Shown one piece after another: positions 10,281 through 64,000 of a stretch of DNA of 64,000 nt. Every line of letters begins with the position of its first letter. The first letter of the stretch is position 1. The notes beneath the pieces were generated by a model. The model made no database searches. It was given only the letters and a program-made list of their open reading frames with translations, and was not told the DNA's origin. Made by a program: the position numbers and the translations under genes. Source of the DNA: Geosiphon pyriformis uo1 (Eukaryota; Fungi; Glomeromycota); NCBI GenBank assembly GCA_016748015.1, contig JAAOMT010000261.1:451883-515882 (forward strand), written 5' to 3'.

Positions 10281-10296
10281 CCATGGGAGAGCACCA
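10281..10296 (-). promoter_or_regulatory. Primer-binding site TGGTGCTCTCCCATGG
   Basis: TGG lies 2 nt downstream of the 5' LTR. The primer tRNA is not identified. Confidence 0.75.
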
Positions 10297-10298
10297 AA

Positions 10299-11284
10299 TA
10301 TTACTGGAGGTTTTTGGTCTCTTTTTAGCTCTTGTATGTTCATTGTAATGCTGTTAATTCATGACTATAGGAAGTGTTTGAACCTCCAATAACTGAATTT
10401 TATCTTCAAATTATTTCCTATAATTTGAACTGCTGGACTTATAAGTGGAATGGCCAATTCCATGCCAATTGCTTTGTGTAGTTATGTTGTAGTAAACGTC
10501 AACTCTTTTCCAGGAATTGCTCGTCTGGAAGCTCACTAAAAATATGTAGTTACTTTGCTATGAAAGTCAACTCTTCTACAGGAATCTTGTCTGTAGGCTA
10601 CCCTAATGATTATAATAAGAAAATAAAAGAAAGAAAATAAAAGAAATGTAAAAGAAATAGAATTCTGTCAAGAGAAACGTTTTCTATCCAGGCCTGGAGT
10701 CACAAACAGTTTACTGAAATTGGTAGCTAATCAATTTCAAAACTGTTTAGTAGGAATTGGTTAATTTCCAAAAGGAAAATAATTAAGGATTTAATTTTTC
10801 GAATTATTTGATATTTATTTTGTTTTTGTGTGTAAAGAATGATTCTAATTGTTAAATCTGAAGTAAGATACATTTTCTTGAAGAGAGAAGTTTTTCTTTT
10901 ATACAACTTGTCGTAACACTATTCTATGAACTTGAACTTTGCTCTTTTCTACAATTTCGCTGAACTAAAAATACATTTTGATGAACTACAAGTTATTTCT
11001 GCAAACTATTAGATATTTTGGTGAACTATCAATTATTTCGGCAAATTTCTACAAATTTCAGTGAACTTTTGAATGTTACATATTTCAGGGTATTGCATAA
11101 TTGATTATTGCACTTAGATTACATTTGTGTTATGTACAAATTGGGTTATTAATTGATTGGTGATATTTGATAATTTGATTGAATAATAATTGATGATTTT
11201 AAAATGATAATATGTGCTAATTAATAATAAGAATTATAAGAGTAATTTTATGTTAATTAATATCTCAAATTTTGGTTGGTAACA
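10299..11284 (-). repeat. 5' LTR of element 1 (family A)
   Basis: Direct repeat of 1385-2368, adjacent to the PBS. Confidence 0.95.
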
Positions 11285-16131: not shown

Positions 16132-16928
16132 TGTTACGAGATGGTTTTCTTGTTATATTTAATTGCTGATATCCTGCTTTAATTGCAATCAGTCTTTCGT
16201 GAGTTCCTCAATTCTATTTGTGTGATAATGTTACTTGTTACACTGAAGGCTTTCTTTTTACTGTTGTGATGTAAGTTATTCTTTAATTCTTGATTGTTGT
16301 GTGTGTTTATGTACTCCTTCTCAGAGGCTGAACTGAAATCTACCCACTGTCTGGGGTCTTCTCTGAGGCTATCCTTGCAATTGCCTGATGTGTTTCTCTA
16401 ATCTAGAAACACAGAATGTTAATGGTCTTTAGCGCTTTNNNNNNNNNNNNNNNNNNNNATCAAGGATTATTCTTCCAAGGGATTCAGTTGATGAATGATA
16501 GTTTCATTCAATAAATAATACAAGTAAGTTTCTTAATACTTTGGGTTGTGATAGTTCCGTTTTAAATATTCTTTTTCATTTCTTTTTGATTTTTAAAGGT
16601 TTCTTGGGATATTTAATTTGAAAGTATGATTTGATAAGTTATGATTTTTATTACTTGATTGATTCTTTCCCAATATTAAAACTACTGTATATATACATGT
16701 TTGTAGTTCTACGAGAAAATACTTTCTTTTTGATATTTCAACCTGGTGCTTGCTGCTATCACCAGTTGGTATTGGCTGCTATTGTGAACTGGTGCTTGCC
16801 ACTATCGCGAGATGGTGTTTGCTACTATGTTAATCATTACCTTTCTAAGATTATTACTGTGCTATATTATGATTGAATAGTTTGTATTATTTTTATGATT
16901 CTTTTTGCTAAATTCTTAAACCGTAACA
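16132..16928 (-). repeat. Solo LTR, family C (spans an N gap)
   Basis: TGTTACG...CGTAACA with perfect TSD ACAT; interrupts RT. Similar to 35846-36658. Confidence 0.88.
16439..16458. other. Assembly gap (20 N)
   Basis: Run of N. Confidence 1.
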
Positions 16929-20055: not shown

Positions 20056-20924
20056 TATTACTTATAGAATATATAGGAAGTATATTAGTATATAAAATAG
20101 CCAATTAGAAGTAGATATAGTAAATATAGAATTCCAGAATTCCTTTCAAAGAAATTGCAGAATTCCAAGAATTTCAGTATTCTTGTATAAAAAATTACAG
20201 AATTCCAGAATTCCAAGATTCCTCTTAAAAGAATTGCAAGATTCCAGAAATTCTAAGATTTCTAACATAAAAAATTAAGAAATTGAGAAATCTCAATTAT
20301 GTATATATAGTAATAGTATTAGAAGTAAAAAAGACAAATCTTTTAGTTTAGATTTTTATCTAAGCAACTTTCCTATTCACAAATATCAATAAATAATTAT
20401 TTGCTATATCAATCCACTTTTTACTATCAACATAAAGTGTTGATAGCAGCTAATACTTAATTATGCTAGAACAATAGCTCTTGATCATGGCTATTGATGG
20501 AATACTAACATTTATTGTCTTGGCTTATTTTTTTATTTTATTTTATTTTATTTTATTTTCTTTCTTTTATTATTTTTTGTTGCTTACTAATTGATTAAAG
20601 GATTAAGCACTAAATAATTGATGTCAAGAATAGCCTAATAAAAGACTCCAAAAGAAGGGTATAGAGTTTGAAAATTTAAGGATAGCTTACTAAAAGGGCA
20701 TCTTTGCTAGATTACTAGCCACCATGCTGAAAAAAAATTCAATAGAATTGCAATTCCAGAAGACTACTAAAACAACAACTGAATCTTTGTCTATTATACA
20801 AAAAACTTCAACCTAAAACCTTCAGATTATCAAAACCTTCAGATATTATCAATAATATTAGTTATTGAGCACCAAGTTACAGATTTGTTATTTAATTTGA
20901 GACCCCAAATAATCACCTGTAACA
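20056..20924 (+). repeat. 3' LTR of element 2 (family B)
   Basis: Follows the PPT and ends CACCTGTAACA; right flank ATGG. Confidence 0.92.
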
Positions 20925-25598: not shown

Positions 25599-25599
25599 T

Positions 25600-36658: not shown

Positions 36659-36671
36659 TTATCCCCTCCTT

Positions 36672-36960
36672 TCAAGATTGAGCTCTATTGAAATTGAAGT
36701 TAATTTCTTCATTGAATTCTAAGTTGTTATAGTAGTCCAATACTGTATTATTAACTTGTTGTTGTAATTTTTGAAATTGTAAGTTGGTAAGTCGTCCAAT
36801 ATTATTAGTTGTTATTATGTTCATGGTTGGATTCAGTAATACTTTGTGACAATTTTCAAATGCTTTGAAAATTCCATAAACTGCTTTTTGAATAGAATGT
36901 AATATTGGTTTTTCCAATAAAACTTTCTAATTGTTGAATTGTTGCTTTGTCAAATATTTT
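36672..36960 (-). pseudogene. C-terminal half of an ORF3 homolog
   Basis: KAVYGIFKAF..VLLNP.MNIIT.NNIGRLTNLQFQKLQ. Confidence 0.75.
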
Positions 36961-36984
36961 AATTGATGGGTGGGTTCATGATTT

Positions 36985-42733: not shown

Positions 42734-42746
42734 AGGATTCACCAAA

Positions 42747-43854: not shown

Positions 43855-46800
43855 ACTGTAAAACTTTCCATCTATTTATCAATAACAAACCTAATGCTTA
43901 ACTTCTTAGCTCTTAATAACTCAGCAAATTTGTATATACAATATAACTTTTTTATGCCAAACAAAGCAGAATGCACATAAACAATATTTGTATCAGAATT
44001 CACAAGATCTTAAATAATTAATGCCTTGTCACTGTCCAAAAAGCAAACCTATCAACACTTTCCTCACAAAAAGCCTTAACAATTCTTGAAACCAAAATTT
44101 TCAAATTATGAAACCTAGAAGATCTTTTGATAAAAACACTATTAAAGTTTTTAAATTATAATTTCTTGAATGTTCCATCAGCCAAAAAAATCACAATCTT
44201 GTGAATAATATCTCATATTGTATCCAAATCTGAAAACTTCTTAGAAGTAACAAACTCATCAGAAAACATTGTAGTATTGGCTGTTATAGCATTCTTAAAA
44301 ACATTTTATTTTATTAGTATTTTTAATATTAAACTTCCAATAATTTTTGTTTGCCTGTTTGCACACAGAGTTTAATTGCATGTTTAATAAGCTTTTTAAG
44401 CCTACAGAAACAAAAACAGCTTGGTGATCAGTGTCAAAATATTCTCCAATGCCTATTATACTACAATCTACTATTGTATTAATCAAGTTTAAAGAAATAA
44501 ACACATAATCAATTGTTTTCACAATATCTTTCAAATTTTCTTATATTGATGTGTTTGTAGCTAAACTTTTAACCAATGAATTGACTAATCCCAAACTAAG
44601 GCACTTCTTAAAACTAGCACATCTGCAAAATCTATTTTTATTGAAATTCTCATCTAAAATTACAAAAAAAGATTCATTGACAGTCTTTGCAATTAAAGAG
44701 TTAATAATATCAGCTTAAAAAAATTAGGCTGCCAATAAAACACTAGCATACAGCCCCAAAATTGAAACAAAAAGTTTATTTTTAAATAATAACTTGATAG
44801 ATAACAGCCAGCCAGGAATTTCTGAAATCTTATACACATGTCTTGTCAAGGCTGTATTTATAATAATTGTAACACCAAAATCCAAATGACCAGAATTCAA
44901 AACCAGAAGTAAATATTTAAACATCATCAAATTTGTTTTTAATCCATGAATAAATCTTCCTTTTTAACTTGGTTTCTATAACAACAAAAATCAAATTGTT
45001 TATATCCTTGTGTTAATAAATAATATTTTTTTGCTTGGCAAAATTGTTTATTTTTCTGACATTGCATATGACAATTTTTCATACAAAACTACTCATTAAG
45101 AAGGAGTTTGAAAAAGCATATCACCAGCTAAAGCCAAACTATCAAAATAAACTGACAAACTTAATACTAAAGTTAAGAGATCTTTCAATATGTTTTTTAA
45201 CTTAACCATATTAAAGAAGGCAGACAGAACCAAAATCACAGCAGCTTTACTACCAGTAGTCTTACTCAAGCTTTTTCCTATTATTATATTACCTACTTAA
45301 TTCTGTAATAAGGAAGTTATTAACAGCTAACATTCAGAACTAAGCTAGGAAACTATCAGTATGAGTGAATCCAACCTCTTAGCCAATTCACCAATTTGTT
45401 CTGTAAGGCTAATAAGACTGCTTTTAATTTTGACCAATCATATTTCCAATTTATTTATAATAGATAGAAGAGGTTTATTATTATTAATAGAACCAAAACA
45501 TGATTTAACACCATAAAATACATGTGTAAAAGAAGTACCAATTACTAATGTCCAAGTTTTATCACCAAAAACTAAAGAACAAAATTTTTCTTATAAATCT
45601 TTGTCAATCTAAACTGATCTTAAGCTAAAAAGAGAACTTTTTGCTCTTTAAAGCTGATAATATCTTTGATGATCTATAAGTGAAAGATGTATAACCTGAA
45701 ATCCTACAGACAAAACACAAAGCAAGAAACAGACATGACCAATAGAGACCAACTTTTTTTATAATTGGAGTTACAGTTATTGCATTAACCAACTCCAACT
45801 TAGAACCAAAACATACAATAGCACAGTAAACATGGGTATAATTAAAGGAATTACAATCAATAATGCAAGTTTTTTATCAATAGAACCAATAAATTCCTAT
45901 ATATTGAAAACAGTTATTTTCATAGAAAGTATATAAAACAAAGCCTTATACTTATCTTTAAATTCTCACATTTGTTTATTGAGATCAGTCTTGGCTACAC
46001 AAACTGCATTTTTTTCAATGAAGATAGACCACTCAGAAACCAAAAAATTAGTCTAATTTTGATTTTCCAATTTGATGACTGTCTTTTGTTAGAGACTTAC
46101 TAGTTGTATTTTAATTGACTTAATGTTATCAAACTCAACTATAGTGGCATACACAGTCTCAATAGATGTTTTCACAGAAATTTTTTTTAACACAATTGCT
46201 CAATTTATATGATTGTTGACAGAACATTTAAGATTGGTGTTTACTATAATATCTTAATTATTTGCCAATTTGCTGCAGCCATTATTGTCTTTTTAGAAAT
46301 AAAAGAAGCCAAATAATTCTACCAAATTTTGAAAGGGTAGAGGCTCCTCTAAAACCATTTACACCAGAGAAAATTTTCTTGACAACATTTAACTTATTTT
46401 AAGAGGATTTATTAGTTACTACTGCAAAATTAATATTAAGAGCAAAAAATTTTCTAATTGAAACTTGAACAATAAGTTTAAGAAAAAAAAAAGATAAAAA
46501 TAAGAGCAATTCATCCAATACATTATTATTACTATCACTGCTCATGTTAAAATCAATCATACCCAAAAGCTTTCTAAGAACACATTTTGTAATTATTTTT
46601 TTAGGTTCTTTAGACATTATTTCAGTATTATTTCCACCAGATTTTTCTCTACTCTTCTGCTGAAAACTTGTTTCTTCTATTAAATACTCTTTTTTTATAT
46701 CTATACTCTTTAATTTAGTAGTATTATTATTCATATATCCAGCCAAATTACCAAAAACACCACTAACAGAAACATCAACTATAGCAATAGATTTCTTTAA

Positions 46801-46950
46801 TAAACCACTTTTGTGTTTTTTTTTAGCAGAGAAGTTAATAACAACAAGATTAGAAAGTAACTTTTTTTTGGACTTTTTTATAATAAAATTGCTATCATTA
46901 CTGGCAGTCTTGTATTTAAATAGAAAAGGTTTGGAAGTATTTAGTTGAAT
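43855..46950 (-). mobile_element. LINE fragment: ORF1 plus the APE endonuclease part of ORF2, 3' part lost
   Basis: APE motifs CNV, GV.III, KTIDYVF and TDH. ORF2 ATG at 45096 overlaps a TAA (TAATG). Homologous to 52600-55880. Confidence 0.8.
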
Positions 46951-48918
46951 AGTAATATAAAATAAACAGCAAAAACTTCTTTTAAAATTTGTACCTTTTT
47001 AAGAATTTTAGAACATAAGAAAAAGTTTTTTTTTATTTAAATGTTTTAATATTATTTTAATTATTAATAATAATGGTTTTTTTTATATTATTAAGTTAAA
47101 TCTAAACATTATTTTTTTTGATAGTAAATTTTTTAAATTTAACAATTAGTATATATATTATTAATATAATTAATAAGAAAAATATATATAAAAAATAAAA
47201 TTAACAGTAAATAAGCTTTAAAAATTAATAGTATTAGTAATAAATTTATTAACATAACTGAATTATTAAGTATTAATAAAGTGAAGTTTAGAAAAATTGA
47301 ATTTTAAATAATTTAATTTAAAATAATTTTCAAAGTTTAAATAATAATAGATTTTAAGATTAGTGTTTTTTTAAAATTTTTTGATTTTTGTATTTTTTTT
47401 TAAATTGTTTTAAAACAAAAACCAAATGTTTTTTGATTTTATAATAAATAATAATACAGTTTTTAATAAGATTTAAATTGTATTTTTAAGTATATAATAA
47501 TATAATAAGTTAATAAAATATTCTGCAATTTTTTTAAATAAGGAATTAAATTTTTTTTAAAATAACTATTAAAATTTATAGCTTTTTTTTTGTTTCTAAA
47601 TATTATTAGAAAAATTTTTTAGATATATAATTCAATTTATAGTTTATTTTTACAATTATTAATGCAAAATTATAGTTTTATAAAAAAACTAATTAAAATC
47701 TGATTTAATTAAAAAGTTATTATTGTTTAATTTTAAATATACTTAGTAAATACAAAATAAGATAAATATTAATTTATAAATTTAAATAAATAATTATTTA
47801 TAATTTTTATTAAAATTTTACTTTATGTATTAAATTATTAATTTTTAATAAATATAATTAAATTAAGAAAATTATTTTTTTATTTTTTAATAATATTATT
47901 ATATATATATATAAATCTTTATAATATAAAAATTTTGGAATTATTAATATTTTTACATTTTTTTGAATTATTACTAGAATTTTTGGCATTGTTACTCATA
48001 GAACATAGAAAGTATATTAGTATATAAATTAGCCAATCAGAAGTAGCCATAGTAAATATGGAATTCTAGGATTCCTTTCAAGAAGAATTGCAGGATTCTA
48101 AGAATTTCAGGGTTCTCGTACAAGAAATCACAGGATTTTAGAATTTCAGGATTTCTGGTGTAAAGAATTAAGGAATTGAGAAATCTCAATTATGTATATA
48201 TAACAGTAGTACTAGAAATAGAAAAAGACAGAATCTTTTAGTTAGAGATCTCTCAGTTTAGATCTGATTTAAGCAACCTTCTATTCACAAGTATTAATAA
48301 ATAATTATTCACTATCTTAATCCACTCTCCACTATTAACACTTTATGTTGATAGTAATTAATACTTAACTACACTAGAACAATAGCTTTTAATCATGGCT
48401 ATTGATGGAATACTAACTTGCAATTGCTTTTACTTATTTCTTTATATTCTTTTATTTTTCTTTTATTTCTTTTGTATTTCTTTTGGTTGATTAATTGATT
48501 AAGAATTAAAGTGTTGAGTTACAGACATTATAGGAACTGATAAAAGACCTGTTAAACAAGGGTAAAACACTCATAGATTTGAGGATAGCTTATCAGGAAG
48601 ATTACTGGCCACCATGCTGAAAAAGAAATTTGATAAAACTGTAGTTTCAGGAAGCTATGAATAAAACCATCAATTAAATCTCTGTCTATTATACAAAAAA
48701 CTCTATAACAAAATCTTCAGATATCAACACCAGAATATTAGCCAAGCACCAAGTTATGGATTTGTTATTTGATTTAAAACCCCAAATAATTACCTGTAAC
48801 AGCATTTTTAAAATTTTTAATATTATATTATTTGTTAATTTATTATATATAATTGGTTAATTTATGTTATATTTATTTTTTATTATTATTTAATAAGTAA
48901 TTATATTTTAAATATATA
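46950..48918. other. Extremely AT-rich low-complexity tract containing a solo LTR
   Basis: Almost pure A/T outside 47990-48801. Confidence 0.7.
47990..48801 (+). repeat. Solo LTR, family B
   Basis: TGTTACTC...CTGTAACA with perfect TSD GCAT. Confidence 0.95.
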
Positions 48919-49041
48919 TTTTTTTTTTATGAGTAAAGTCCAAACACTACCTAGTACTATACAATAAAAAAATAATATAAACTAAACATAAATCATGCAT
49001 TTTTCACACATGACCAACCACTTAGGCCAATTAAAACAACA

Positions 49042-52000
49042 CTATGCAGTTATATAAACAGAGACTGAGTTACTAACACCTAAAAAAAATACATAAAATT
49101 TGCAAAAACCAAAATATATGCCAAAGACCTTAGTGATGCTAAACAATTTGATCATACCAGCAGAAAATTTTGAAGCCAGGCCAGACACTGAAATAAAAGC
49201 TGAACTATTTGAAGAAATTAGTTTGTTCTTTTTCATATAGACATGATGTTTAGCACAAACTAACCAAATGTCATTTCTAAAAGCAAAACCAAGAAAGTGC
49301 ACAAATTTAACAATCTTCAAACTAGTGATTTTGGAATTGCAGAAAATGGAAACAGTCTCACTAAGCCAACCATTAAAAACAAAACTCTAACAGAAAGCTG
49401 TAGACACAAATGAATTAGAAGCACAGGATGACAACAGTTGTAGTACACTAAAAGAGGAACAAAAGAGACCAGAAAGCACCCTTTAGGAAACCATATGGGA
49501 GTCTATTATATGGTGATAAACAGAAATGTTTACTTCACAAGAGAAAATATGATCCAATACCTCCATACTACCACAATATAGATACAACACATTGGGATAA
49601 CATCTATCATAAAGACACTTCTGAATGGCCATAAGCAGCCAACAATGCAAAACTTTCATGAAATAAGTGCATGTACTAGCTGAAAACTCACTAGTAAAAC
49701 CAGTGACCATGTGCAAATCAGAATGCCACACCAAAAAAAAACTAAGCCAATTAATATCTGAAAGCAAACTATCTGCCAAAAACTTAAAACCAGAACCAAC
49801 TTCTCAATGTGCATGACAAATAGAATAATAAATATTATGAACAAACTATTTAGAATTGCCAGAAACAGCAATGTCATCAGCCACTATAAAGTGTTCATCC
49901 AAATGAAGAAGAAAGTACCAACCAGAAAGAGAAGCAGCACCAGCTAACACATCAGCATGTTCATTCCCCAAGACACCAGAGTAACTCTTTACTTTGTGCC
50001 AACTGACATTCAAATTCTTACCACAAATAATGTTCACAATATGCCAATGCTTAACCCAACACTAATTACAAAAATTAGGATCCAACAGACTTAATTCCGA
50101 CTTACAAGCATCCAAGACAGATTGGCTATCTGAAAATATACAAACAAAACTAGAAGAGAGAACACACTCTAAAACTAATACAATAGCCTGTATTTTTGCC
50201 AAAATAGACAACATCAAATCCAACACATTAATCCCCAAACCCAAATTAACATCCTTAAAGAAAGCTGCAGCACCAGCCCTTTTGGTAACTGTGTCCAGAT
50301 TCTTTAGAGACTCATCTGTGTATACAGATAAATTACCAGTAACAAATCTAGAAAGATGGTTACAAACTGATACAAAATTATGAGATCCAAGAATGCTCAA
50401 AAGACCAATATTATTTAAATCAGAGAAACGAGAAAAAGAAGACATTACATCATTGAAAAACACAGTAAAAAGTTTAAACCAATTAGAAATGAGGCCACAG
50501 AGGTCCAATTTCCTCTACTACTTAAAAGTGTACCAATTAAACACAGCACCATAATGATTATGAAACTGATTCACAAAGGCAATGCCATATTTTCAGAGTG
50601 AAGAGAAAAACTTGGAAAATTTTGACTTACCAAGAACTGCAGACATGGGCACCCCACCAGGAAACAAAAAAAAATTGGCTAAAGAGCCACTCAGGGACAG
50701 CTTGTACTCAAAAAAAATATGAACCATGTCTGCCAAAAAGTTGTTTAAAGAACTGACTTGAATATGAACAGGAAAACTCAAAGAATAAATAGAACACCAA
50801 TACAAAATTTGTAGGTCATAAGACCTGTAAGAAAATAAGTGACCCAAAATCCCACCAGAGTTCACAAAACTGATAAGAGAGGCCACCTTACTCTCAGACT
50901 GGACTTAAATGAAAGACTTCAAACCATAAAAGGAAGGGTAATAAATTATATCACCAGAAAAATCAAAAGATAGACCAGTTTTAAGTTTCAAGTCTTTATA
51001 AATCAGAGCATCTTACTTGTTGTACACATCAACAAAAACAAAGCTAAACTGTGTCCTATAGTTGACAATAAGGTGTAGAACAGTTGACACTAAATACAAG
51101 AACTGCTTATCAGAAACAGTCTTTTTCAGAACCAGGTTAGTGAAAAAGTGAATGTCCAAATGCACTTTAGCCAAGCTAAGCTTTGAAAGACTCTTAGTAG
51201 ATAGAAAGATATACAGATATCTGTAAGATTCCTCTTTTTTGGAAATAGAGATGGGCATTTTGCTAATATAAAGAAAAGATTTGTCAATCCTGTTATTGAT
51301 AAGAATGGCCACTATTTTGTCATTATTAATAGAGATATCATTGATCTGAAAGAATTCACTGACAATATTGAGAATATGTTGAGTAGCATTCTGACTGCTA
51401 TCAATCCAAATTGTATTATCAACAAAGGCACCAGCAGCAAGAAAGAAAGAAAAACCAGCCCTAGATTTAACATGACCATTTTTGATGATAAAATGAGAAT
51501 TCAGTCTATACTTATACATATTCTCTTGATGCTTAACTTTACACAACAGGAAATCATAAAATATGCATCACAGAAGAGAGGAGAAAATCTCTCCTTGGTC
51601 TAAACTATTGTGCACATGATAACCATTGATAAGTTCGAAATCAGTCATAATCTGATTGGTACAATCCCTATAAATACTACCAAAAAACCTAATAAATTTG
51701 CCACACATTTTAATTCTGACCAAGCTCTTTTCAAGATGCTTCCATCTAATTAAGTTATATGCTTTCTGCATATTCTGCAAGACTAGCCATAGCTCTTGAT
51801 TTTTTTCTAGAGCATCCTCAACCACAGACCCAATTGCAAAAATATGAGATTGGGTTGTTGTACCTTTTAGAACCAAAAAATTGTCATCACAAAGAATATT
51901 AAAAGTGCTGTATGCCAAAGAAATCCTATCAGAAAGAATCTTGTGAGCTGTCTTAATCAAAACAATGGGACAAGTATTTATAAGAACATCTTTCTACTCA

Positions 52001-54690
52001 TATGGTTTGGAAATCATTGAGACCCAAGCCTCCTTCCAAGACTCAGACACTGATTCACTAGATAAACAAGAGTTTAAAAGCACTAAAAGCATATTTAGGA
52101 CCAACTTGTTACAATACTTCCAAAGTTCATTTGAGACATCTAAGAGACTAGCAGTTTTGCCATTAGGCAGGTCAAAAACCACACTAAACAATTCATCAAA
52201 TTTCACTGAACATATTACACCAAAAAAAGTTTCATCAAAAACATGCTCCAAAGATTGATACTGATGATACCAATTATTAGAAACAACAGCCACCACTTTG
52301 CACTTTCTAGTCCAACTCTTTATAATAGTATCCACTTTAGACTTAACCAAATCAGGCTCCAGAATCAACTTATTATTGACAACTAAGTAATCTAGCACCA
52401 CTTTATAAAAAGGATGCTCCATCATACTTCTAATAGTATGATCTTTATTTGTCTCAAAACTTTCTATCCTTTTGTCTATAGCCGACCTGATGTTCACTTC
52501 ATTAGCCTTTAAAGACTCAGCAAGCTTGGAAGCATGATAAAATTTTCTTGCACAAGAAAGAGCTAAATGAACATGATCAAAGCTCATATTAGAGTTCATG
52601 AAATCCTGAACAATCAAGGCCTTGACATTGTTCAAAGAAACCCATTGCTTTATAAGGAAGGTAAAACTGACATTACTCTCCTTATGAGAAGTCTTAACAA
52701 TTTTCGAAACCAAAAGTTCCAGCTTATAGAACCTTGAAAAATTCTTGGTGAAGATACCATTAAAGTCCCTAAACCATTTTTTTTTGAATATTTTACTTGC
52801 TAAAAGAGTTACTATCTTACAAACTATATTTCATATAGCATCCAAATCCAATAACCATACAGAGGCAGCAAATTTGTTCAAAAACAATAAAGCATTGGCT
52901 GATGTAACACTTCGAAAACATTCTCATTTACTCTTATTAGCACTCTTGAAATCAAACTTTCATTGATCCCTATTAGCTTGCTTGCAAAAAAAAATCAACT
53001 GTGTATTCAGAAGGCCACCCAAACCTATAGATATAGAAACAGCTTTGTAATAGTATTAAAGTATTCCCCAACATTAGCCACACAGTAATTCACCACCATG
53101 TTAACCAAATTTGAGAAGATAAACACATAGTCAATTGTCTTAGCTACACCTTGAGAATTGTTCTAAGTTGGCACCTTTGCAAACAAGCTTACACTTAAAA
53201 AGTTTACCAAACCCAAATTAAGGCATCTTTTGAAACTGGTACACTTGGTAGAATTATCTTTATTGAAATTCCCATCCAAGACAACAAAAAAAGACTCATT
53301 GACTGCCTTTGCAATCATAGAATTAATATTATTAGCCTAAGAAAAACAAACAGCCAGAGATGTCTCAATATAAAGTCCCAAAATCAACACTAAAAGTTTG
53401 TTTTTGAAAAGCAGTTTAATGGATAGGAGCCAACCAGGTATCTCAAAAACTTTGCACACATGTCTCACTAAAGAGGAGTTCATAATGATCACAACACCAG
53501 TACTCAGATAACCAGATTACAAACCAGAAGTAAACATTCACACATCATCAAATTTGTTGACAATCCAGAGACAAACTTTTTCTTTTAGCTTTGATTCTGT
53601 AAAAATAGAAATTAAATTGTCCTTGTCTTTGTGTCAACAAATGATATTATCCTGTTTTGCAGTGTTACCAGTAGAATTTTAGCTATTAATTAGCATAAAA
53701 TTACTCTTATAATTCCTATTATTAATTAGCATATATTATTATTATTTTGATTATTACTTATTATTTAATCAAATTATCAAATATCATTACTCAATCAATA
53801 ATCCGATTTGTACTATAGAAATTAAGATAATCAAATTACACAATACCCTGAACCATTTAACATAGTCAAAATTCGCCGAAATTAATGAAAATTGGCCGAA
53901 ATAATCAATAGTTTAGTGAAATAACTTGTAGTTCACCAAAATGTATCTTTAGTTTCCCAAATTGTAGCAAAGAGAAAAGTGCAAGTTCAAAGACTAGTAC
54001 TACAACAAGTTGTATAAAAAAAGAGCTTCTCTTTTCAAGAAAATGTATTTTCTTATAATATTTTAACATAGTATCTTATTTTAAATATCTTAACTAAAAC
54101 AAATCACCTTTTATATATTCAAATAAAAATTAAATATTCGAAAAACAAATTCTTAAAATTATTATATTTGAAATTCTCTCAACACAACTAATGTTTTGAA
54201 ATTAATTAGCTACCAATTTCAATAAACTGTTAGTGACTCCAGGCCTGAATAGAAAACGTTTCTCTTGATAAAATTCTATTTCTTCTATATTTCTTTTATT
54301 TTTATTTTTTTTTTATTACAATTATTAGGGTAGTCTACAGATGAGATTCCTGTAGAAAAGTTGACTTTTACAATAAAGTAACTACACATTTTTAGTGAGC
54401 TTCCAGATGAGCAATTCTTGAGAAAGAGTTAATATTTGCTACAATGTAACTACACAAAGTAACTGGCACAAAATTGGCCATTCTACTTATAAGCCCAGCA
54501 GTTCAAATTATAGGAGATAATTTAAAGATAAATTCAGTTACTAGAGGTCCAACTACTTCCTGAGAACATAAATTTACAGCAAATCAACATTAACAACATT
54601 CAAGAAAAGAGACCAAAAACTTCCAGTAACAGCAGGATTGTTTATTTCTTTAACATTACACATAGCAATTTTCCATATCAGACCACTTAT
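49042..54690 (-). pseudogene. LINE ORF2
   Basis: Consecutive ORF fragments 49042-52713 plus the APE region, interrupted by solo LTR 53663-54631. Confidence 0.88.
53663..54631 (+). repeat. Solo LTR, family A
   Basis: TGTTACC...AGTAACA with perfect TSD GCAG; reverse complement of 11923-12892. Confidence 0.95.
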
Positions 54691-55881
54691 TGGAATAAAG
54701 AAAGCAATAAAGCACCCGAAACAGAGCACAAACAATCTAATCTAACCAGCACTGAACTGATTGAAGCTTCCAAAGACACCAACTTTGACTCTAAGCCACC
54801 CACTTTGGTAGTTAGAACCTTGGAGCTATTTGAACTAAAACCAGAAACATTATCATCAACAGCAGAGAAAAAGAGAACAGAAGACACTAACACACCATCC
54901 AAGACCATGTCTGAGATCAAACCCAAAGCTGAAGATACAAAAATAGCTAAAGAGAGTACTTGAAAGACAAATAGCAAAGGCACCAGTTCCACAAAACTGA
55001 ATTTTTTCATAACACTAAAAACTTGATTGGCTAAAAGTTCCAAAGAGCATTTCAAAGATGCCAAATGATTATATAAACCAGAGATGCCAAGAGGAGCAGA
55101 AATATATGAGGAAGATATAGCACCAGGAGAAAACTTAGCACCAAAAGATGAACCAGTACCTAAAGAAAATAAAGAGACCATTAGAGAAGAAGAACCACTG
55201 GCAACTTGGGCCTAAGTTTTGTCACTGAAAGAAACTGGGCAAATGATAGATGTCTGCTTTTTTTTATAAATGTTGGCCAGGCAAGCCCAGTTCTAAGAAT
55301 TAACCACCTGCTTACTATGACCACCACAATTCTCACCCACTGCATAATCAACAGAAACATGACCAAATTGTTTGTACTGAGCACAACAAGCCAAAAATAG
55401 ACCAGCCCAGTGCAAATTCACACTCTTAAAAACTGAAGTAGAATCAATAGCAGCCACTCTAAATGTCTCATTTTCAAAACAAATCACTGCACATTTGTTA
55501 CAGATATATGAACTTGGATTGCGACCAATAAAGCATGTTTTTCTACCATAAGAATTTAACAAGTCAGAAAGATTATGAGCAGTAGTTCTAACTGGTAATG
55601 TATACAATAATACCCGATATTGGTCTCTTAAGGTCCATGATTGCTTATCATTAATAGCCAAAGCCACATATACAGAATTTTTTCCCATGAAAACAAACCA
55701 TTTAGAAGCAACTGAACTAGCCACTTCAAATGATTCAAACTTTACCAAAGCCTTTTGTCATAAACCAATTAATTGTATTTTAATTGACACAATCTTATCA
55801 AATTTAGAAAAGACTGATTTTACTGCCAATCTGGGAAGATCAACTGGGATTTTCTTAACAATTATTTCCCAATCTATATGG
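54687..55881 (-). pseudogene. LINE ORF1, C-terminal part
   Basis: ORFs 54687-55181 and 55293-55748; decayed knuckle CAQYKQFGHVSVDY and a coiled-coil-like C-terminus. Confidence 0.75.
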
Positions 55882-58683
55882 TGTTGCAGGTGATTATTTG
55901 GGATCTTAAATCAAATAACAAAACCCATAACTTAGTGCTCAAAAGCTTATTTACAATGATGTGGATCTGAAGATATTGTTTTTTGAAAAGTTTGATTGAG
56001 TTTTTTGTATAATAGACAGAAATTCAATAGTTGTTTATCTGTAGCTTTCCAAAATCGCAATTCTGTCAATTTCTTTCTTCAACTTGATGGCTGGTATTTC
56101 TCTGATAAGTAATCCGTATTTTTTATATGCTCTACCCATTCACAGGGGTCTTTTACCAGGCAATTCTTGATGTCAATAATTCTGTGCTTAATCTTCAATC
56201 AATTAGTAAAACAAAAGAAATAACAAAAATAAAAAAAAATAAAAAAAAAATAAAAAAAAAATAAGCCAAGGCAATAAAGGTTAGTATTTCATCAATAGCC
56301 ATAATTAAGAGCTATTGTTCCAATGGTGTTAAGTATCAATTACTATTAACATGAAGTGTTAATAGTGAGAGTAAATTAAGATAGTAAATAATTATTTATT
56401 TGATATTTTGTGATATAAAAGGTTGTTTAAATCAAATCTAAACTGAGAGGTCTGTTTTTTCTACTTCTAATACTACCACTATATATACATAATTGAGATT
56501 CCTCAATTTCTCAATTCTTCACACCAGAAATCCTAAAATTTCTGGAATTCTGCAATTCCTTTGAGAGGAATCCTGGAATTCTGGAATCCTGTGATTTCTT
56601 GTACAAGAATTCTGAAATTCCTGGAATCCTGCAATTCCTCTAAGAAAAATTTTGGAATTCCACATTTTACTATAGTTACTTCTAATTGGCTAATTTATGC
56701 TAATATATATTTTTTATATTCTATGAGTAATATTATTCTCTCCTTTTTAATATTAAGCTCTGTCAAGATCTCCTAATTCTAATTCTTCATCTTTGAGTAT
56801 TTTTTGGACTTATTTTTTAAGAATTACTTGTGCTATCTTGTTTTGTAAGTCTTTAAATTAGGCATTAGTTATTTTTCCATTTGGTTAATGGTAATGGAGT
56901 TCATTTCTGAATTAAGTAAGATTTCTGGTCGATCTTGAAATCTGATATGTAGCCAATAAATGGCTCTTACTTGTGTGGTCAAATTGTTTTTCCCCACAAA
57001 TTGTTTCAGTTGTTGTAGTATTGTTGTGTTAAATGATCGTTTTGTTTTATCTGTGTACAAGCCCTGAATGTTTAAGTATTGTTCCAAATAAAAATAACAA
57101 AAGTTTCTTGGAAATTATTGTATCTACTGTTACTGGAGGTTTTTGGTCTCTTTTCTGTAATGTTGTTGATACCTGTTTGCTGTGAATTCACATTTTCTGG
57201 ATGTGGTTGAACCTCCAGTAACTGAATTTTCTCTTCAAATTATAGGAGATAATTTGAACTGCTGGGCTTATAAGTGGAATGGTCAATTCCATGCCAGTTA
57301 CTTTATATAGTTACATTGTAGTAAACATCAACTCTTTCCCAGGAATTACTTATCTGGAAGCTTACTAAAAAATGTGTAGTTACTTTGCTGTGAAAGTCAA
57401 CTCTTTTACAGGAATCTCATCTGTAGGCTACTTTAATAATTGTAATAAGAAAAGAAAAGAAAAATAAAAGAAATGTAAAAGAAATAGGATTTTATCAAGG
57501 GAAACGTTTTCTATCCAGGCCTGGAGTCACTAACAGTTTACTGAAATTGGTAGCTAATCAATTTCAAAACGTTAGTTGGGTTTTGAGGATTTTCCAAGTG
57601 CAATAATTAAAGAATTTGGTTTTTCGAATTATTTGATATTTATTTCTTTTTGTGTGTGTAGAAATGGTTCTAAGTGATAAATCTAAAGTAAGATACATTT
57701 TCCAGAAGAGAAAAGCTCTTCTTTTATACAACTTGTTGTAGTACTAATCTATGAACTTGCACTTTTTCTCTTTGCTCAAATTTCGGTGAACTAAAAATAC
57801 ATTTTGATAAACTACAAGTTATTTCACTGAACTATTGATTAATTTGGGTGAACTATTCATAATTTCGGCGAATTTCTGTAAATTTCGGTGAATTTTTTAT
57901 AAATTTCGGCGAATTTCTGTAAATTTCGGCAAATTTTTGAATGTTACAAAGTTCAGGGTATTGTGTAATTTGATAATCCTACTTTCTGTTATACTAATTA
58001 GATTATTTTAATTGAATCGTGATATGTGATAATTGATTAAATAATAAATGATAATTTGAAATGATATTAATATATTAATTAATTATAGGAATTATAAGGG
58101 TAATTTTATGCTAATTAATAGCTAAAATTCTACTGGTAACACCACCAATTCCAAGTTTCTATAGTCAACTCTTGATAGTGAGTAACTTTTGGTTGTGTTT
58201 CTATTGCCAGTTTCACTTTTGCAATTATTTTGTCAACAGTGTTTTCTGTTTTTCTCTGTGTTTTATCTTATGTTCTTTTTCTGGTGTTTGTGTATCTAAT
58301 AGTTTGTTGATTGATTGTAATTTCTATTTTTTGTTGTTGTATTAGTTAAAAGAGTTGTTGTGCTAGTGAGTGAATGCTGTCAGTAATCACCATTTTCTGC
58401 TGTCTTTTTGTTGGATATACTGTGTGTTTATATACTCTTTTGATTGTTTAATTTTATGTGTTTGGTTCAATAATTATGATTGGTTTTAGATCTTATAAAA
58501 TCTCATCTGGTTTGACTAGTATTCTCTGTACTTCTAATTGTAGAATATTGTTGGTGGATAACAATGCTATATGGTAATATGGTTTCAGTCAATCACCATG
58601 TGCTGTTTTGGTTAAGATTTTGTTGTTCAATCTTAATTTATAAGCTCCATTTTCAAGAATTTCTTTTATGTGAAATAGTCTAT
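55882..58683 (-). mobile_element. Ty3/Gypsy element 6 (family B): 3' LTR 55882-56732, PPT, ORF3 and integrase C-terminus
   Basis: PPT 56733-56748; ORF3 from ATG 58393 to ~56750, split by a solo LTR; IN tail GAYKL..AHGD. Confidence 0.9.
57128..58141 (-). repeat. Solo LTR, family A
   Basis: TGTTAC...GTAACA with TSD CTAC/CCAC; expanded U3 repeat array. Confidence 0.95.
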
Positions 58684-60061
58684 TGTTACTCATAAAATAT
58701 AAGAAATATATTAGCATATAAATTAGCCAATCAAAAGTAGCTGTAGTCAATGTGGAATTCCAGGATTCTCATATAAAAAATTGCAGGATTCCAGAATTCC
58801 AGGATTCCTCTCAAAAAGAATTGCAAAATTTCTGGTGTAAAGAATTGAAGAATTGAGGAATCTTAATTATGTATATATATTGGTAGTGTTAAAAGTAAAA
58901 AAAAACAGACCTTCTAATTTAGATTTAATCTAAACAACTTTCCATTCACAAATATCAATAAATAATTATTCTTTATCTCCAATCTATTCTCTACTATCAA
59001 CATGAAGTGTTGATAGTAATTGATATTTAATCATACTGGAACAATAGCTCTTGATCATGGCTATTGATGGAATACTAACTTGCAATTGCTTTTGTTTAAA
59101 TTCTTAATCTTCTTTATTTTCTTTTATTTTCTTTTATTTTTTTTTTATTGCTGTTGTATTTCTTTTTGGTTGACTAATTAATTAAGAATTAAAGTACTGA
59201 ATTATAGACATCATAGTGACTGGTAAAAGACCTGTGAAACAAGGGTAGAACACTTATAGATTTGAGGATAGCTTACCAGAAGGATTATTAGCCACCATGC
59301 TGAAAAAGAAATTTGACAGAATTGCAATTCCAGGAGGCTACTAAAACAACTATTGAATCTCTGTTCATTATATAAAGAACTCAACAAAAACTTTCAGATA
59401 CAAACAACTTTCAGATTACTAATACCACCATCGCAAATAGCTTCTGAGCACCAAGTTATGGGTTTTGTTATTTGATTTAAAACCCCAAATAATCATCTGT
59501 AACATTTAGTGCTCCTTGTGAGATATAACTCTACAGAGAACTAGTACCAACAACAAGCATCCAAAAGTGGCAGAATTAGAAATCATAGAAGCAAACCATT
59601 TAGGATTTGCCAAATCCTTGTTTCAATAATACAGCCAACAATTAGAATTAAGCAATAATTATTTCCCAGCAGAATCAGTCTTTAACTTTTACATCAATAA
59701 TAAAATCACAGACTGCTTAGGGAAAACAGTTAACATTGAATCCGCAAGAAAAAATTTCTATACAGAATTGTTTCAACATACCAGTTTACTAAGAAACTAC
59801 AGTTCCATACCAATCATCAGGAAAATCAATTAAACTATCAAAAAGTACACTCAACAATAATTCCCTATTACTTATGCAAACAAAAACAAGGGAAGACTGC
59901 AAACACCAGTAGTAATACCAAAACAGATACAACCACCCACTTAGAAGAAAACCAGAGTTGAATTACTAACCAAACCATCATACTATTATACACCAGAAAG
60001 TGCCATCAATATTTTCTCAACAGACACATCCACATCAAATGCGACATTAACCTTTGAATAA
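58684..60061 (+). mobile_element. Ty3/Gypsy element 7 (family B): 5' LTR 58684-59504, PBS 59507-59524, gag leader
   Basis: The LTR is followed by TT-TAGTGCTCCTTGTGAGAT (decayed TGG). The gag leader is homologous to 33277-33830. Confidence 0.9.
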
Positions 60062-61099
60062 TGTTATGAATAAACTTGGTGGGGTATGATGGTAATGTTT
60101 GGTGCTTTAATTTGGAGTTCTGGATTGGTCAGCTTTTGTCATATCAGTGTTATTAGTCTTTGAAAGTCTATTCCTGCACGTGAATTTACCCGTTGAGTTC
60201 TTTGGTTATAAGACACAGAGTTGGTATCTTGTCAATTGCAACATTTTTCTTTAAAGGTGAGCTTTTTTTTCCGAGCTAATGAGTATGGTCATTAGGGTCT
60301 GGTATTGTCTTTTTGCCCTTCTGGTAAGCTAACAAGATAAAGTTAATATCCAAAAACCTAAGGGGAGCTTCCCTCTTTTACCAGGCTATCACAAAGTCTA
60401 TTCCCAGACAGTCAATTTTACTATGTTGCTGCTCCACAAAAGAAAAAAAAAATAAAGAAAAAAAAAAAAAGAAAATAAAAGAGAATAAAAAGGGAAAGAG
60501 TAAAAGAAATTAGTATCGTCAATTACCATGATCAAGAGTGATTGGTCCAAGTCATTAATGATTTAAGGTAGTTTATGCTAAGAGCATCTGTTCTGGAATG
60601 AGGTTAGGAAGTAATAAATCAATTGAAACATAGAAGTTGGAAAACTCTAGGTTTGTAATTTGGAATATTTGATTTATTTTGAAATCTATGTACAGACTAA
60701 GATATAAGAGAGTAAAGGAAATTTATTCTTGTCTAGCTGTTTGTTCTTTTAACTTCTATGACTACTCATTTTTATACATTCTTTTGGTTTTACAGGATTG
60801 CTTACAATTGTTATATTATCACTAGCTATTGTTTCATTATTTCTATTATTGCTTCGTTATTTCTGTTATTGCTTTGTTATTCTATATTATTGCTAGTTAT
60901 CTTATGTTATAACACATTATCTGGTATTATTACATGCTATTCTGTGTTATTCTATGTTATAACATGTTATCCTGTGTTATCCTAAGTTATAACGCATTAT
61001 TCCACATTATTGCACATTATCCTGTGTTATGTCATGTTTTGTTCATGTTTTGGTCACATTTCTCTCCTAACTTGAATTGGTTTTTTTACTTGGGTAATA
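60062..61099 (-). repeat. 3' LTR, family D
   Basis: TGTTA...GGTAATA next to a PPT; shares U5 motifs with family B. Only one copy is present in the window. Confidence 0.8.
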
Positions 61100-61104
61100 T
61101 TATC

Positions 61105-61848
61105 CCTCTCTTTTTAAAATTGAGCTCCTGCAAAACCATATGTATCTGTTGTTATGGCTTCATTCGTGTAATGTTAAATGGTTGCCTCGAATATTGCCTC
61201 TTGTAGATCTTTGAACTGTTGATTGGTTATTCGTCCTATGTTGTTAATCATTATGGTTTTCATAGATCTGTTTAGTAGTACATTTGGACAATGTTGAAAG
61301 GTGGTGTATAGTCGGTATGCTGCTTTGTAATATAGGGTTAAGTTGTTTTTTCCTATGAATTTTTCTACTTGTTGCATTGTTTTTTTGTTGAACATTCTCT
61401 GGTTAAGGTTTTCATATGGTGTTTTCAAGTCAAGCTGCTTTCCAATTTTGTAGAACCAATAGGCTGGCAGAAGTTTTTTTTTCTATTTCTGGGCATTGTC
61501 TAGTGTCTATTCCTCTGTTTCGGGGAGTTTGGTCCTCTAAGCCAAAGCTTGTTTTATTTCTTCAAGCTCAGGGACCAAGTATCTTCTTTTATAAAATAAT
61601 TCCCATTCTTTCACTCTTTCTTCTCCACCTCCCATCTGAAGGCAATTTTTCTTCCAATATTGCCTTTCGGATGGTATGTAGGAGAGAGAATGTTTAGTTC
61701 TTTTTGAACTTTCATCTTCTCCTCTCCTGCTTTTATCCTTGTACCATATCTCTTTTTTATCAATTGTTATTTTTATTTTAGCAGGAGATTGTTAAATTGC
61801 ATCAAACAGTTGTTTCGAGAGTTGTAAAATTTGATCTAAAAGGTCCAT
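61105..61848 (-). pseudogene. ORF3 homolog of element 8
   Basis: MDLLDQILQLSKQLF..KAAYRLYTTF..NNIGRITNQQFKDLQ. Confidence 0.75.
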
Positions 61849-64000
61849 GTTAAACTTTTGTTGACTTATTTTTGTTGTTTCAATGGTTATATATACTTGA
61901 ATTTTCCAATTAAATAGTTGCATATTACTTTTATGTTTCAATGATGATGATTGGTTCCAGATCTCATGGTATATTTTCTGGTCTGATTAATGGAATTTGT
62001 GTTCCTAACTGAGGTATTAATGACAATGACTGCTGTTTTGCATGATAAATTTTCAATCAGTTTCCATAAGCTACTTTCTTTAGAATCTTGTCTTCCAATC
62101 ATAATTTGTAAGCTCTATTTCCTAAAGCTTTGTGTATATGGAATAGACCGTCCCACTTTAGGTTGAACTTTCCACTCCACTGTTTTTCAGCTTTTGTACA
62201 GTGTAACAGTACTTGGTCTCTAATCTTGAATTTCATTGGTTGTTCAGACAGACAATCATCATGTCTTTCCTTTTGCCATTTTTGAGCATTACTAATATTA
62301 TCAGCTGCTGTTTTTCGGTTGTTTTCTAATGTTTCCATTAGCTGGTACATTCTTTGGTATAAGGTAGCTTCAAAATTCTTTTCGGTGATTGTTTCTGTTG
62401 GGTAGGACAATATTTTTTATTCTATAGGTAATGTAGCTTTTCTTCTATAGACTAGTTCAAATGGTGTAAATTGTGTCATATTTTGCTTTAGTATTTGGTA
62501 TGCAAAGAGTACTGAAGGTATGAATAAGTCCCATTTTTGTTCATTTTTTTGACTTATTTTTGCTAGTGCTTCACACAGTGTTCGGTTAAACCTTTTTACC
62601 AGTCTGTTTGTTTGTGGGTGGTATAGTGACAATAAAGGATGTTTTATACCAAACCGTTGGCTTAGTTCAATTAGTGTATTATTAACAAAATGTGTTTCCT
62701 GATCAGATAATAATTCTTTTGGGCATTTATGTTGGCAAATTAGGTCTTGATGCACAAATTCGGCTACTGTTTTGGTGTTAGCCACTTGGATTGCTCTGGC
62801 TTCTGGCCATTTTGTAAGATAGTCTACTGCTATTGTGATGTAACAATTTTCTTTGGATGTTATGGAGAAAGGACCAACCAAATCGATCTCAATTCTATTA
62901 AATAGATTTCTAACTGGAATGGGTCAAAGTGGTTCTGTTATTCTGGCTCTTCCTCTTCACTGACATAAGTTACAATTGAGAACATATTCAAAGATATTCT
63001 TATATATTATAGGCCAATAGTATAGATTTGTTGTTCTTTCCAAAGTCGTATCTTTGTTGAAGTGTTTTGAAGTTGAGTCAGAATGCATACTATATAATAT
63101 AGCTTCTTTTTCACTGTCTTTGATTAATCATTGTGGGGTGGGGTGGTTTTGTTGTTTTTGATGATAGAGTTGGTCATTTTGAATAAAGTAATTTCGTGCT
63201 TGTTTCTATATGATATTTTGTTTCTGTTAAGATAAAATCTCCTTAAAACATAGTGTCAATAGGTACTGATGTAATCGCTGATAAGTAAGTGTGTCCATGG
63301 GTCCGAGATTAGGTTTGTGGCATCCTCGACAAACTGTCGGCATTGGTGTTCTTGGATCTTTCCTTGTAATGGACTTTGAATGGGAATTGTTGCAGATAAG
63401 TACTCCATCTTGCATATTTCCCTTCTAGCTGTAGATTGTTGAGTAATCAAATAAGTCTTTTGTGGTCAGTATATAAGTCAAATGGTTGACTAAGGTAATG
63501 TTTCCATGTCTGTACTGTCAAATAGATGGCGAGGCATTTCAAATTGGTTGTGCTGTAATTTTTTTCTACTGAACTAGTGCTGTGGCTGGCATAAGCAATT
63601 AGATGTTCTCTATTGTCCAGTCCTATCTGTGATAAGACTGCTCCTAGAGCATTTTCGAGGTGTCTGTAGTGACAATAAATCATTTAGTGAAGTCTGAATA
63701 GATCAATATGGGGGAGGTAATTAATCATTGCTTGAGATAGTCAAATGTTTTCTGTTGATTTTCCTTCCACAGGTATGGTACATATTTGGACAACAAGTGA
63801 TGGAATGGTTTTGCAATAGTTGAGAAACCTTTGACAAATTGACAATAGTATCTTGCCAATTCTAAAAATTCTCATAATTCTCTGAGGTTGATTGGGGCTG
63901 AAAAATTTCTAACTTTCTGGACTTTGTCTGAGTTGGGTTTGATTCTGTCTTTGCTAATCACGTGTCTTAGGAATTTCAATTTGGTTTTTCCAAAAAAACA

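What the first reader, a model, noticed from the sequence alone, without database searches (positions are those of the whole stretch)
59220..59282. Covarying RNA motif AGC-[P1]-AAG-[P2], present in U5 of all four LTR families and usually twice
Seen, on the element-sense strand. Family B (59220-59282): CTGGTAA-AAG-ACC..GGT-A..GATAGC-TTACCAG-AAG; the copy at 48537-48596 has the compensatory pair CTGATAA/TTATCAG. Family C (16311-16375): GGATAGC-CTCAGAG-AAG-ACCC..GGGT-A..AGC-CTCTGAG-AAG; at ~36030-36085 the partner strand is CTTTGGG, which pairs only through G-U and so indicates sense-strand RNA. Family D (60315-60392): GATAGC-CTGGTAA-AAG-AGGG..CCCT..AGC-TTACCAG-AAG, with P2 flipped relative to B. 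Family A (10476-10605): two tandem units, TAGC-CTACAG..CTGTAG-AAG-AGTT..AACT-ACA and GAGC-TTCCAG..CTGGAA-AAG-AGTT..AACT-ACA. Helix sequences change while pairing and the AGC/AAG linkers stay constant. In C, D and some B copies (e.g. 20620-20702) the two units face each other across one 7-bp helix, a two-fold symmetric layout reminiscent of the MPMV constitutive transport element. Inference: an undescribed cis-acting leader RNA, such as an export element, packaging signal, IRES, ORF3-binding site or ribozyme.
Basis: partly seen in the sequence, partly recalled or inferred. Interest (0 to 1): 0.8.

Follow-up and report, generated by a model that had tools for sequence, protein, structure and literature searches.

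The report
Shared RNA junction in fungal LTRs
Four distantly related jumping-gene families in a Geosiphon-type soil fungus keep the same small paired-sequence pattern in their end repeats, predicted to fold as an RNA junction that likely helps control how the element's RNA is used to make its capsid protein.

Summary
The motif is real. All 17 LTR copies in the window (families A 5, B 8, C 3, D 1) carry AGC-[P1]/[P1']-AAG-[P2]-A. Helix sequences differ between families while the linkers stay fixed, family A uses a permuted layout, and a model built from B and C finds held-out D (E 8e-4). The elements are decayed Ty3/gypsy retrotransposons with dUTPase; their Gag N-termini match only Geosiphon pyriformis proteins. 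The 48537 'compensatory' pair is two ordinary decay changes, G-U and A-C cells are equally common (16 vs 18), folding energies are no better than shuffles, and the copy at 59220 has only one junction. U5 placement is inferred from TATA-like and AATAAA landmarks; no transcript was examined. New context: upstream lie a palindrome-loop hairpin, a branch-point-like heptamer and a U tract. A reading frame opens 14-17 nt after the structure in A and B, at ATG, AAG or decayed ACG-type codons. No Rfam family matches; the CTE and k-junction membership tests fail. Best guess: a protein-binding leader element for Gag translation (0.35); packaging and splice/export control are close rivals.

The parts
58684..59504 (+). 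Family B 5' LTR holding the cited copy (TGTTAC...TGTAACA)
   Evidence: Self-alignment and LTR alignment; loose ends of 32 and 59 contigs at 59502 and 59504
58870..58879 (+). TATA-like TGTATATATA after the U3 tandem repeats (inferred promoter)
   Evidence: TGTAT[AT] in 14 of 17 LTRs
58957..58962 (+). AATAAA, inferred poly(A) signal near the R/U5 border
   Evidence: layout as in PMC3601003 (passages)
59042..59066 (+). Conserved hairpin with palindromic TGATCA loop (dimer-initiation-like, inferred); counterparts in C 43101-43123(-) and D 60520-60544(-); palindrome in A 10684-10701(-)
   Evidence: lies in the least changed block of the B LTR
59073..59079 (+). Branch-point-like TACTAAC
   Evidence: TACTAAY 122-145 nt before P1 in 8 of 8 B copies, also in D and 2 of 3 C; background 0.28 per kb
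59110..59150 (+). U-rich tract
   Evidence: present in 14 of 17 LTRs, absent in C
59220..59226 (+). P1 5' strand CTGGTAA
59227..59229 (+). AAG linker; its G is predicted to cap P2 opposite A59247
   Evidence: AAG in 10 of 11 B/C and 7 of 10 A units, the rest AAA
59230..59247 (+). P2 hairpin ACCT/GGGT plus invariant closing A
   Evidence: closing A in 21 of 21 A/B/C units
59253..59266 (+). P3, variable third helix (CTTA/TGAG here; other sequences in other B copies)
   Evidence: read by eye, not counted
59267..59282 (+). GATAGC linker, P1 3' strand TTACCAG, second AAG
   Evidence: AGC in 9 of 11 B/C and 9 of 10 A units
59297..59299 (+). Candidate start codon in GCCACC context (ATG here; AAG in 4 of 8 B copies)
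59319..59330 (+). 12-nt palindrome GAATTGCAATTC
59506..59523 (+). Primer-binding-site-like stretch
   Evidence: most contig depth reads G at 59508, giving TGG; tRNA-Ile identity recalled, not tested
59522..59830 (+). Gag N-terminal frame, broken, no Met in these 103 codons
60303..60392 (-). Family D two-junction copy (3' LTR inserted in the B gag)
10473..10604 (-). Family A tandem hairpin-type units; also 1559-1691(-), 12096-12227(-), 54327-54458(+), 57302-57434(-)
10461..10463 (-). Family A candidate start codon, 15 nt after the last unit; in the Gag frame in 3 of 5 copies
16302..16375 (-). Family C two-junction copy; also 36015-36088(-), 42916-42989(-)
20627..20711 (+). Family B two-junction copy; also 800-885(-), 24983-25068(-), 34062-34147(-)
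48529..48614 (+). Family B one-junction copy; also 35268-35348(+); partial 56084-56167(-)

Best explanation
The motif is a conserved paired pattern in the distal LTR of four Ty3/gypsy families, predicted to fold as a three-way RNA junction in the inferred U5 leader, where it likely binds a conserved protein and helps start or regulate translation of the frame that leads into Gag. Shown: presence in 17 of 17 LTRs, fixed AGC/AAG/A linkers with changing helices, and a reading frame opening 14-17 nt after the end of the structure in all 13 A and B copies. Inferred: transcription from the TATA-like box through the motif; folding with a G-A pair capping P2; a host factor (initiation factor or helicase) as partner, because the linkers outlast Gag N-termini that are only about 25% alike; initiation at that codon, probably ACG-type before decay. 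One junction suffices for a copy to have spread; a second is optional.
For: Pairing 88.6% of 132 cells in B/C/D and 95.8% of 120 in A, covariation scores above 500 of 500 shuffles, slid controls 24-48%. Core columns carry fewer gaps or transversions than U5 flanks: B 3 of 32 vs 131 of 459, p 0.011; A 0 of 56 vs 60 of 467, p 0.0007. Spacing from structure to codon stays 14-17 nt whether B has one junction or two, and is 15 nt in A. In 3 of 5 A copies that codon is in frame with Gag through the LTR end and PBS, with 1-2 stops; one public gene model reads Arg at the shared stop position (P0128), and an in-frame TAA inside the invariant P2 strand closes the frame upstream. The B Gag frame has an in-frame stop in the PBS and no Met for about 100 codons. 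Retroviral RU5 elements with redundant stem-loops do this job (PMC2657110, passages).
Against: No transcript, structure probing or binding data. The codon is AAG in 4 of 8 B copies and Lys in 12 of 20 public B models, a poor initiator (own knowledge). In B the frame stops before Gag in 5 of 8 copies at a TAA 12 nt inside the LTR end, and the other 3 lie in other frames. In A the commoner variant (19 of 20 informative models, 2 of 5 window copies) ends at the LTR-terminal TAA and joins Gag only through a predicted 35-nt intron. Spacing is looser in C and D (6-11 nt, by eye). Sense-strand z-scores are -0.91 to +0.53. The A flanks next to the motif are equally conserved. Four families give few independent changes, and the shuffle control ignores relatedness.
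Confidence: 0.35

Rival explanations
1. Packaging and dimerization signal: Gag's zinc knuckle binds the purine-rich junctions, and the palindrome-loop hairpin upstream starts RNA dimerization.
For: CCHC knuckle in the Gag of A, B and C; TGATCA-loop hairpin in B, C, D and a palindrome in A 110-180 nt upstream; second palindrome downstream; purine loops and palindromes drive MMTV and MPMV packaging (PMC8096270 listing and passages; PMC5035971 passages).
Against: Linkers are shared by families whose Gag N-termini are about 25% alike, whereas packaging signals usually drift with their own Gag (own knowledge). If the upstream intron-like stretch is spliced, the motif would be in both RNA pools.
Confidence: 0.25
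2. Splice-site switch or export element for unspliced RNA: the junction masks or sits beside a leader 3' splice site, or recruits Mex67/NXF1 as a CTE does.
For: Branch-point-like heptamer, U tract and AG precede the motif; in A the AG is 3 nt before the first unit. Donor-like GTAA(T/C/A) lies about 180-200 nt upstream in 5 of 8 B and 115-118 nt upstream in 4 of 5 A. Two-fold layout in C, D and half of B. BARE separates translated and packaged RNA pools (PMC3735527 abstract).
Against: No splicing evidence; none of the 17 LTRs has lost the stretch; C lacks the U tract; CTE sequence features are absent; one-junction B copies exist.
Confidence: 0.2
3. Self-cleaving ribozyme of a new class that makes an uncapped Gag mRNA pool.
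For: Fixed single-stranded linkers, free helices and a permuted layout are typical of small ribozymes (own knowledge); cleavage in 5' UTRs of fungal viruses promotes cap-independent translation (PMC13725137 abstract).
Against: No Rfam ribozyme hit; only about 7-9 fixed bases; cutting U5 would separate R from the PBS in genomic RNA; not found in viral contigs.
Confidence: 0.08
4. Inherited sequence or DNA-level feature without an RNA role: common ancestry, duplication of a near-palindrome, or coding overlap.
For: A's two units are a plain tandem duplicate (82% column identity); C's P1 strands are near-repeats; folds are not unusually stable; a 5' G lowers decay of C (0.21 vs 0.28-0.36), which helps AGC persist; the motif is an open frame in C and B gene models.
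Against: Two-sided changes between families and between A's units; permuted topology; AGC lies in different frames and the frames hold stops in A and D; fewer transversions than flanks.
Confidence: 0.12

Closest known systems
Retroviral RU5 post-transcriptional control element (SNV, MPMV, HTLV-1; PMC2657110, passages)
   Same: Structured, redundant element in the LTR-derived 5' leader; proposed role in Gag translation
   Different: No shared sequence known; here a defined AGC/AAG junction in fungal Ty3/gypsy elements; helicase binding untested
MPMV/SRV constitutive transport element (PMC7551171, passages)
   Same: Two like motifs facing across a helix in C, D and half of B
   Different: No AAGACA, no 150-175 nt two-loop stem, junctions rather than internal loops, located in the LTR leader rather than the 3' UTR
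k-junction / k-turn (PMC4005666, passages)
   Same: Three-way junction with purine loop then G-A capping a helix (R-A-A-G-A opposite U-A)
   Different: 2b-2n is a Watson-Crick A-U or G-C, not A-G or A-A; 2b is G in outer units; extra fixed AGC strand
Retroviral packaging signals with DIS palindrome (MMTV, MPMV, RSV; PMC8096270, PMC5035971, passages)
   Same: Leader position, palindromic loop nearby, unpaired purines, CCHC Gag
   Different: Lies before the PBS, inside the LTR, and is shared across divergent families
Hairpin ribozyme loop A; U6/group II AGC triad (features recalled; Rfam models searched)
   Same: AGC and AAG strings; weak U6 model hits over A and C
   Different: 3x3 rather than 4x4 loop, the 'G8' base is a covarying pair, no loop B; U6 hits are far below cut-off and fall on different structural parts

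Membership tests
Any Rfam 15 family | Covariance-model hit at gathering score | tested here: not met
   0 hits at E<=1 in 64 kb; sub-window scans give at most 22 bits, all far below cut-off
Constitutive transport element | AAGACA in the loops | tested here: not met
   AAGAC(C/T) in B/C, AAGAG in A/D; feature from PMC7551171 passage
Constitutive transport element | 150-175 nt stem-loop with two internal loops | tested here: not met
   60-90 nt junctions, 130 nt tandem hairpins in A
Constitutive transport element | NXF1/Mex67 binding and export activity | not testable with these tools
   needs binding and export assays
k-junction | Three-way junction with G1b-A1n | tested here: inconclusive
   G of AAG opposite an invariant A after P2 in 21 of 21 A/B/C units; geometry is inferred, P3 weak in C and unclear in A
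k-junction | Conserved A2b in a non-canonical pair with G or A at 2n | tested here: not met
   A-U in inner units, G-C in outer B/D units; definition from PMC4005666 passages
Hairpin ribozyme | Loop A N-GUC / AGAA with invariant G8, plus loop B (recalled) | tested here: not met
   base before AAG is A or G and pairs with the base after AGC; no Rfam hit
Post-transcriptional control element (PCE) | RU5 location and redundant stem-loops | tested here: inconclusive
   downstream of TATA-like box and AATAAA, duplicated in 13 of 17 LTRs; RNA ends unmapped
Post-transcriptional control element (PCE) | RNA helicase A dependence, cap-dependent enhancement | not testable with these tools
   needs reporter and pull-down assays
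Retroelement packaging signal | Palindromic dimer-initiation loop nearby | tested here: met
   TGATCA-loop hairpin in B, C, D and palindrome in A; its function is inferred
Retroelement packaging signal | Specific Gag/NC binding | not testable with these tools
   CCHC knuckle present; binding untested
U6 snRNA-derived sequence | ACAGAGA box followed by AGC triad and ISL | tested here: not met
   13.5 and 14.5 bits against cut-off 44; 12-mer with up to 2 mismatches 24 matches vs 12 expected, 5 of them the A loop; hits map to different parts in A and C
Ty3/gypsy (Metaviridae) host element | LTRs, gag-protease-RT-RNaseH-integrase order | tested here: met
   Pfam and tblastn map; dUTPase between protease and RT

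The most novel reading that the evidence does not exclude
A new class of small self-cleaving RNA in the LTR leader of autonomous Ty3/gypsy elements: cleavage at the AGC/AAG junction creates an uncapped RNA pool that starts Gag at a non-AUG codon about 15 nt downstream, while uncut RNA serves as genome.
Probability: 0.08. Interest if true: 0.9.

Novelty: new variant of a known kind. Interest (0 to 1): 0.5.

Why it matters
Cis-acting leader RNAs of fungal LTR retrotransposons are barely mapped, and an element that survives across families with otherwise unalignable LTRs points to a conserved partner or to catalysis. The unit is 60-130 nt and comes in natural one-junction, two-junction and permuted forms, so folding, cleavage, binding and reporter tests are cheap. 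It bears on how one retroelement RNA is split between translation and packaging. Limits: seen only in one fungus, in decayed copies, with no RNA evidence.

Tried and rejected
No whole genome is held for this window, so no genome-wide LTR collection was possible. Sequencing-run search: no RNA holder listed; both read-laying runs used DNA contigs and cannot show RNA ends or splicing. Pattern scans: viral contigs 0 hits; metagenome contigs 18 hits, 0 of 18 with 7 of 7 P1 pairs; a looser viral pattern 19 hits, 0 of 19 with 7 of 7; one search used a P1 one base too long and was set aside (25 hits). RT-based locus searches gave 0, 5 and 79 loci, all distant gypsy elements; the model found nothing in these 84 loci (best E 2.6), of which 22 hold a long direct repeat. 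The B+C model does not find the permuted A units (best 13.8 bits). Rejected: the 48537 pair as proof of compensation; bulk G-U excess; k-junction, hairpin ribozyme, CTE and U6 membership; ENE (single U tract, features recalled, judged by eye); coding as sole cause. The 'intron tail copies exon 1' layout of earlier notes was not seen (longest shared repeat 6-9 nt in 5 copies). A first idea that a strong AUG follows the motif was weakened: ATG, ACA, ATA, AAG and Thr variants point to ACG decay. Ten paper searches listed no description of this motif; the library lacks most subscription papers, the Geosiphon genome paper was not among the listings, and no supplements were read.

Full report
What the window is. 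It is a nest of decayed Ty3/gypsy retrotransposons: Gag with a CCHC knuckle, protease, dUTPase, RT, RNase H and integrase. Self-comparison and alignment give four LTR families: A 5 copies, B 8, C 3, D 1. The RT's best named fungal relative is from Rhizophagus clarus. The Gag N-termini match Geosiphon pyriformis gene models in 120 of 120 listed hits in each of two searches, 78-97% identical for family A. That species has 41.2% of its genome in LTR sequence (PMC11952901, passages). One DNA run laid 9114 contigs on 1381 bases of B and D, so these families are abundant.

The observation. The shared unit is AGC-Y-T...[P1] facing [P1']...A-R-AAG, then P2, then an A. The AAG linker is exact in 10 of 11 B/C and 7 of 10 A units, the AGC in 9 of 11 and 9 of 10, and the closing A in 21 of 21; all departures but one (B 56084) are decay-type changes. 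In B, C and D the two strands of one 7-bp P1 each carry AGC before and AAG after. In A each unit has its own hairpin P1. Three B copies, including the cited one, keep only the inner junction.

Is it structure? For: 88.6% of 132 cells pair in B/C/D, with 5 pairs changed on both sides (D is misaligned in P2 there, which lowers the figure). In A, 95.8% of 120 cells pair and 2 pairs switch between the duplicated units. Both covariation scores exceed all 500 shuffles, and slid controls pair 24-48%; that control ignores relatedness and only four families contribute. A model from B and C finds held-out D at E 8e-4. Core columns hold fewer gaps or transversions than flanks (B p 0.011, A p 0.0007), although A's immediate flanks are as conserved. 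Among D-like contigs the three listed non-decay variants, apart from those reverting the window copy's own changes, fall in P3, a linker or a loop. Against: sense-strand z-scores are -0.91 to +0.53, and the antisense strand of the cited copy folds better (z -1.95). G-U and A-C cells number 16 and 18. Sense polarity rests on two A>G changes at the second P1 pair, one in A unit 2 (4 of 5 copies) and one shared by both LTRs of a C element. I judge an RNA structure likely, not proven.

Where it sits. Along the LTR the order is tandem repeats, TGTAT[AT] (14 of 17), AATAAA about 500-620 nt from the LTR end (17 of 17), a palindrome-loop hairpin, a branch-point-like heptamer, a U tract (14 of 17), the motif, then 160-230 nt to TAACA and a PBS-like stretch. 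By the LTR layout in PMC3601003 (passages) this is U5, but that paper also says the borders need RNA data. A second TATA-like run lies after the motif in B, so U3 is not excluded.

What follows it. A frame opens 15 nt after the last A unit and 14-17 nt after the end of the B structure, whether B has one junction or two. In 3 of 5 A copies it is the Gag frame, crossing the LTR end and PBS with 1-2 stops; a public model has Arg at the shared stop position. The codon is ATG, ATA or ACA in A, and ATG or AAG in B; public B models show K 12, M 3, T 3, other 2 of 20. This suggests an ACG-type ancestor and, in one B lineage, AAG. In the commoner A variant the frame ends at the LTR-terminal TAA; 14 of 120 gene models join it to Gag through a 35-nt intron over the PBS, 9 B models skip the PBS stop and none reads through it, and 20 C models enter Gag at one acceptor. 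These are annotation predictions on decayed copies, not RNA evidence.

How it most likely works. I favour a protein-binding leader junction that sets or regulates initiation on this frame (0.35). Conservation across families with about 25% Gag N-terminal identity points to a conserved partner, and the spacing is held. The AAG codon and the broken link to Gag in B count against it. Packaging (0.25) draws on the palindrome-loop hairpin and CCHC Gag. Splice or export control (0.2) draws on the acceptor-like stretch just upstream. A ribozyme (0.08) and no RNA role (0.12) remain.

Comparison with known systems. Rfam gives nothing at E<=1 over the window; weak U6 hits over A and C (E 1.7, 0.42 in small windows) map to different structural parts and are treated as chance. 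It lacks the CTE's AAGACA and long two-loop stem (PMC7551171, passages). It resembles a k-junction in the G-A cap but fails the A2b non-canonical pair (PMC4005666, passages). By place and redundancy it is closest to retroviral RU5 control elements (PMC2657110, passages). Also read: PMC3735527 and PMC13725137 (abstracts and outlines), PMC5035971 and PMC8096270 (passages). No copy was found outside this genome's elements, but those searches are exact-match or reach only distant gypsy lineages, so the range within Glomeromycotina is open.

Verdict. A real, apparently undescribed leader motif of Geosiphon-type Ty3/gypsy LTRs; a new variant of a known kind; function inferred only; interest 0.5.

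Noticed in passing
window 59499-59537 (+), 10266-10307 (-), and C 42690-42753 (-): Donor-like GTAACA at the LTR end and an acceptor just before the conserved Gag start; public gene models often splice out the PBS. If real, Gag mRNA would lack the primer site.
   Followed up: partly
window 59042-59066 (+), 43101-43123 (-), 60520-60544 (-), 10684-10701 (-): Second shared element: hairpin with palindromic TGATCA loop in B, C, D with different stems, and a palindrome in A.
   Followed up: partly
window 59016-59200 (+), 10602-10717 (-): Intron-like stretch in the leader (donor-like GTAA, branch-point-like heptamer, U tract, AG), retained in all LTRs that have it; no exon-1 copy at its tail.
   Followed up: partly
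window 58993-59017 (+): Perfect 10-bp inverted repeat with 5-nt loop conserved in B LTRs; a donor-like GT sits at its 3' foot.
   Followed up: no
window 10538-10626 (-), 16357-16410 (-): Weak U6 snRNA model hits over the motif in two families; probably chance.
   Followed up: yes
window 2349-3065 (-), 25590-26200 (-), 61060-61900 (-), 36660-37000 (-): Extra ORF after integrase in A, B, D and a related remnant before the C 3' LTR; no Pfam hit for the A copy. Any link to the motif is untested.
   Followed up: partly
window 36661-36988 (-): The C element goes from RNase H almost directly to the 3' ORF remnant and LTR, with no integrase.
   Followed up: no
window 43860-47990, 48810-53660, 54630-55880: Non-gypsy repeat sequence matching Geosiphon gene models, one with a weak RT hit; probably a LINE-type element.
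   Followed up: partly
LTR alignments A and B: C>T/G>A decay in all contexts, highest before G (0.47) and lowest after G (0.21).
   Followed up: partly
L024-L102: Intact-looking eukaryotic gypsy elements, several with near-identical LTR pairs, sit in contigs labelled as prokaryotic genomes; likely bin contamination.
   Followed up: no
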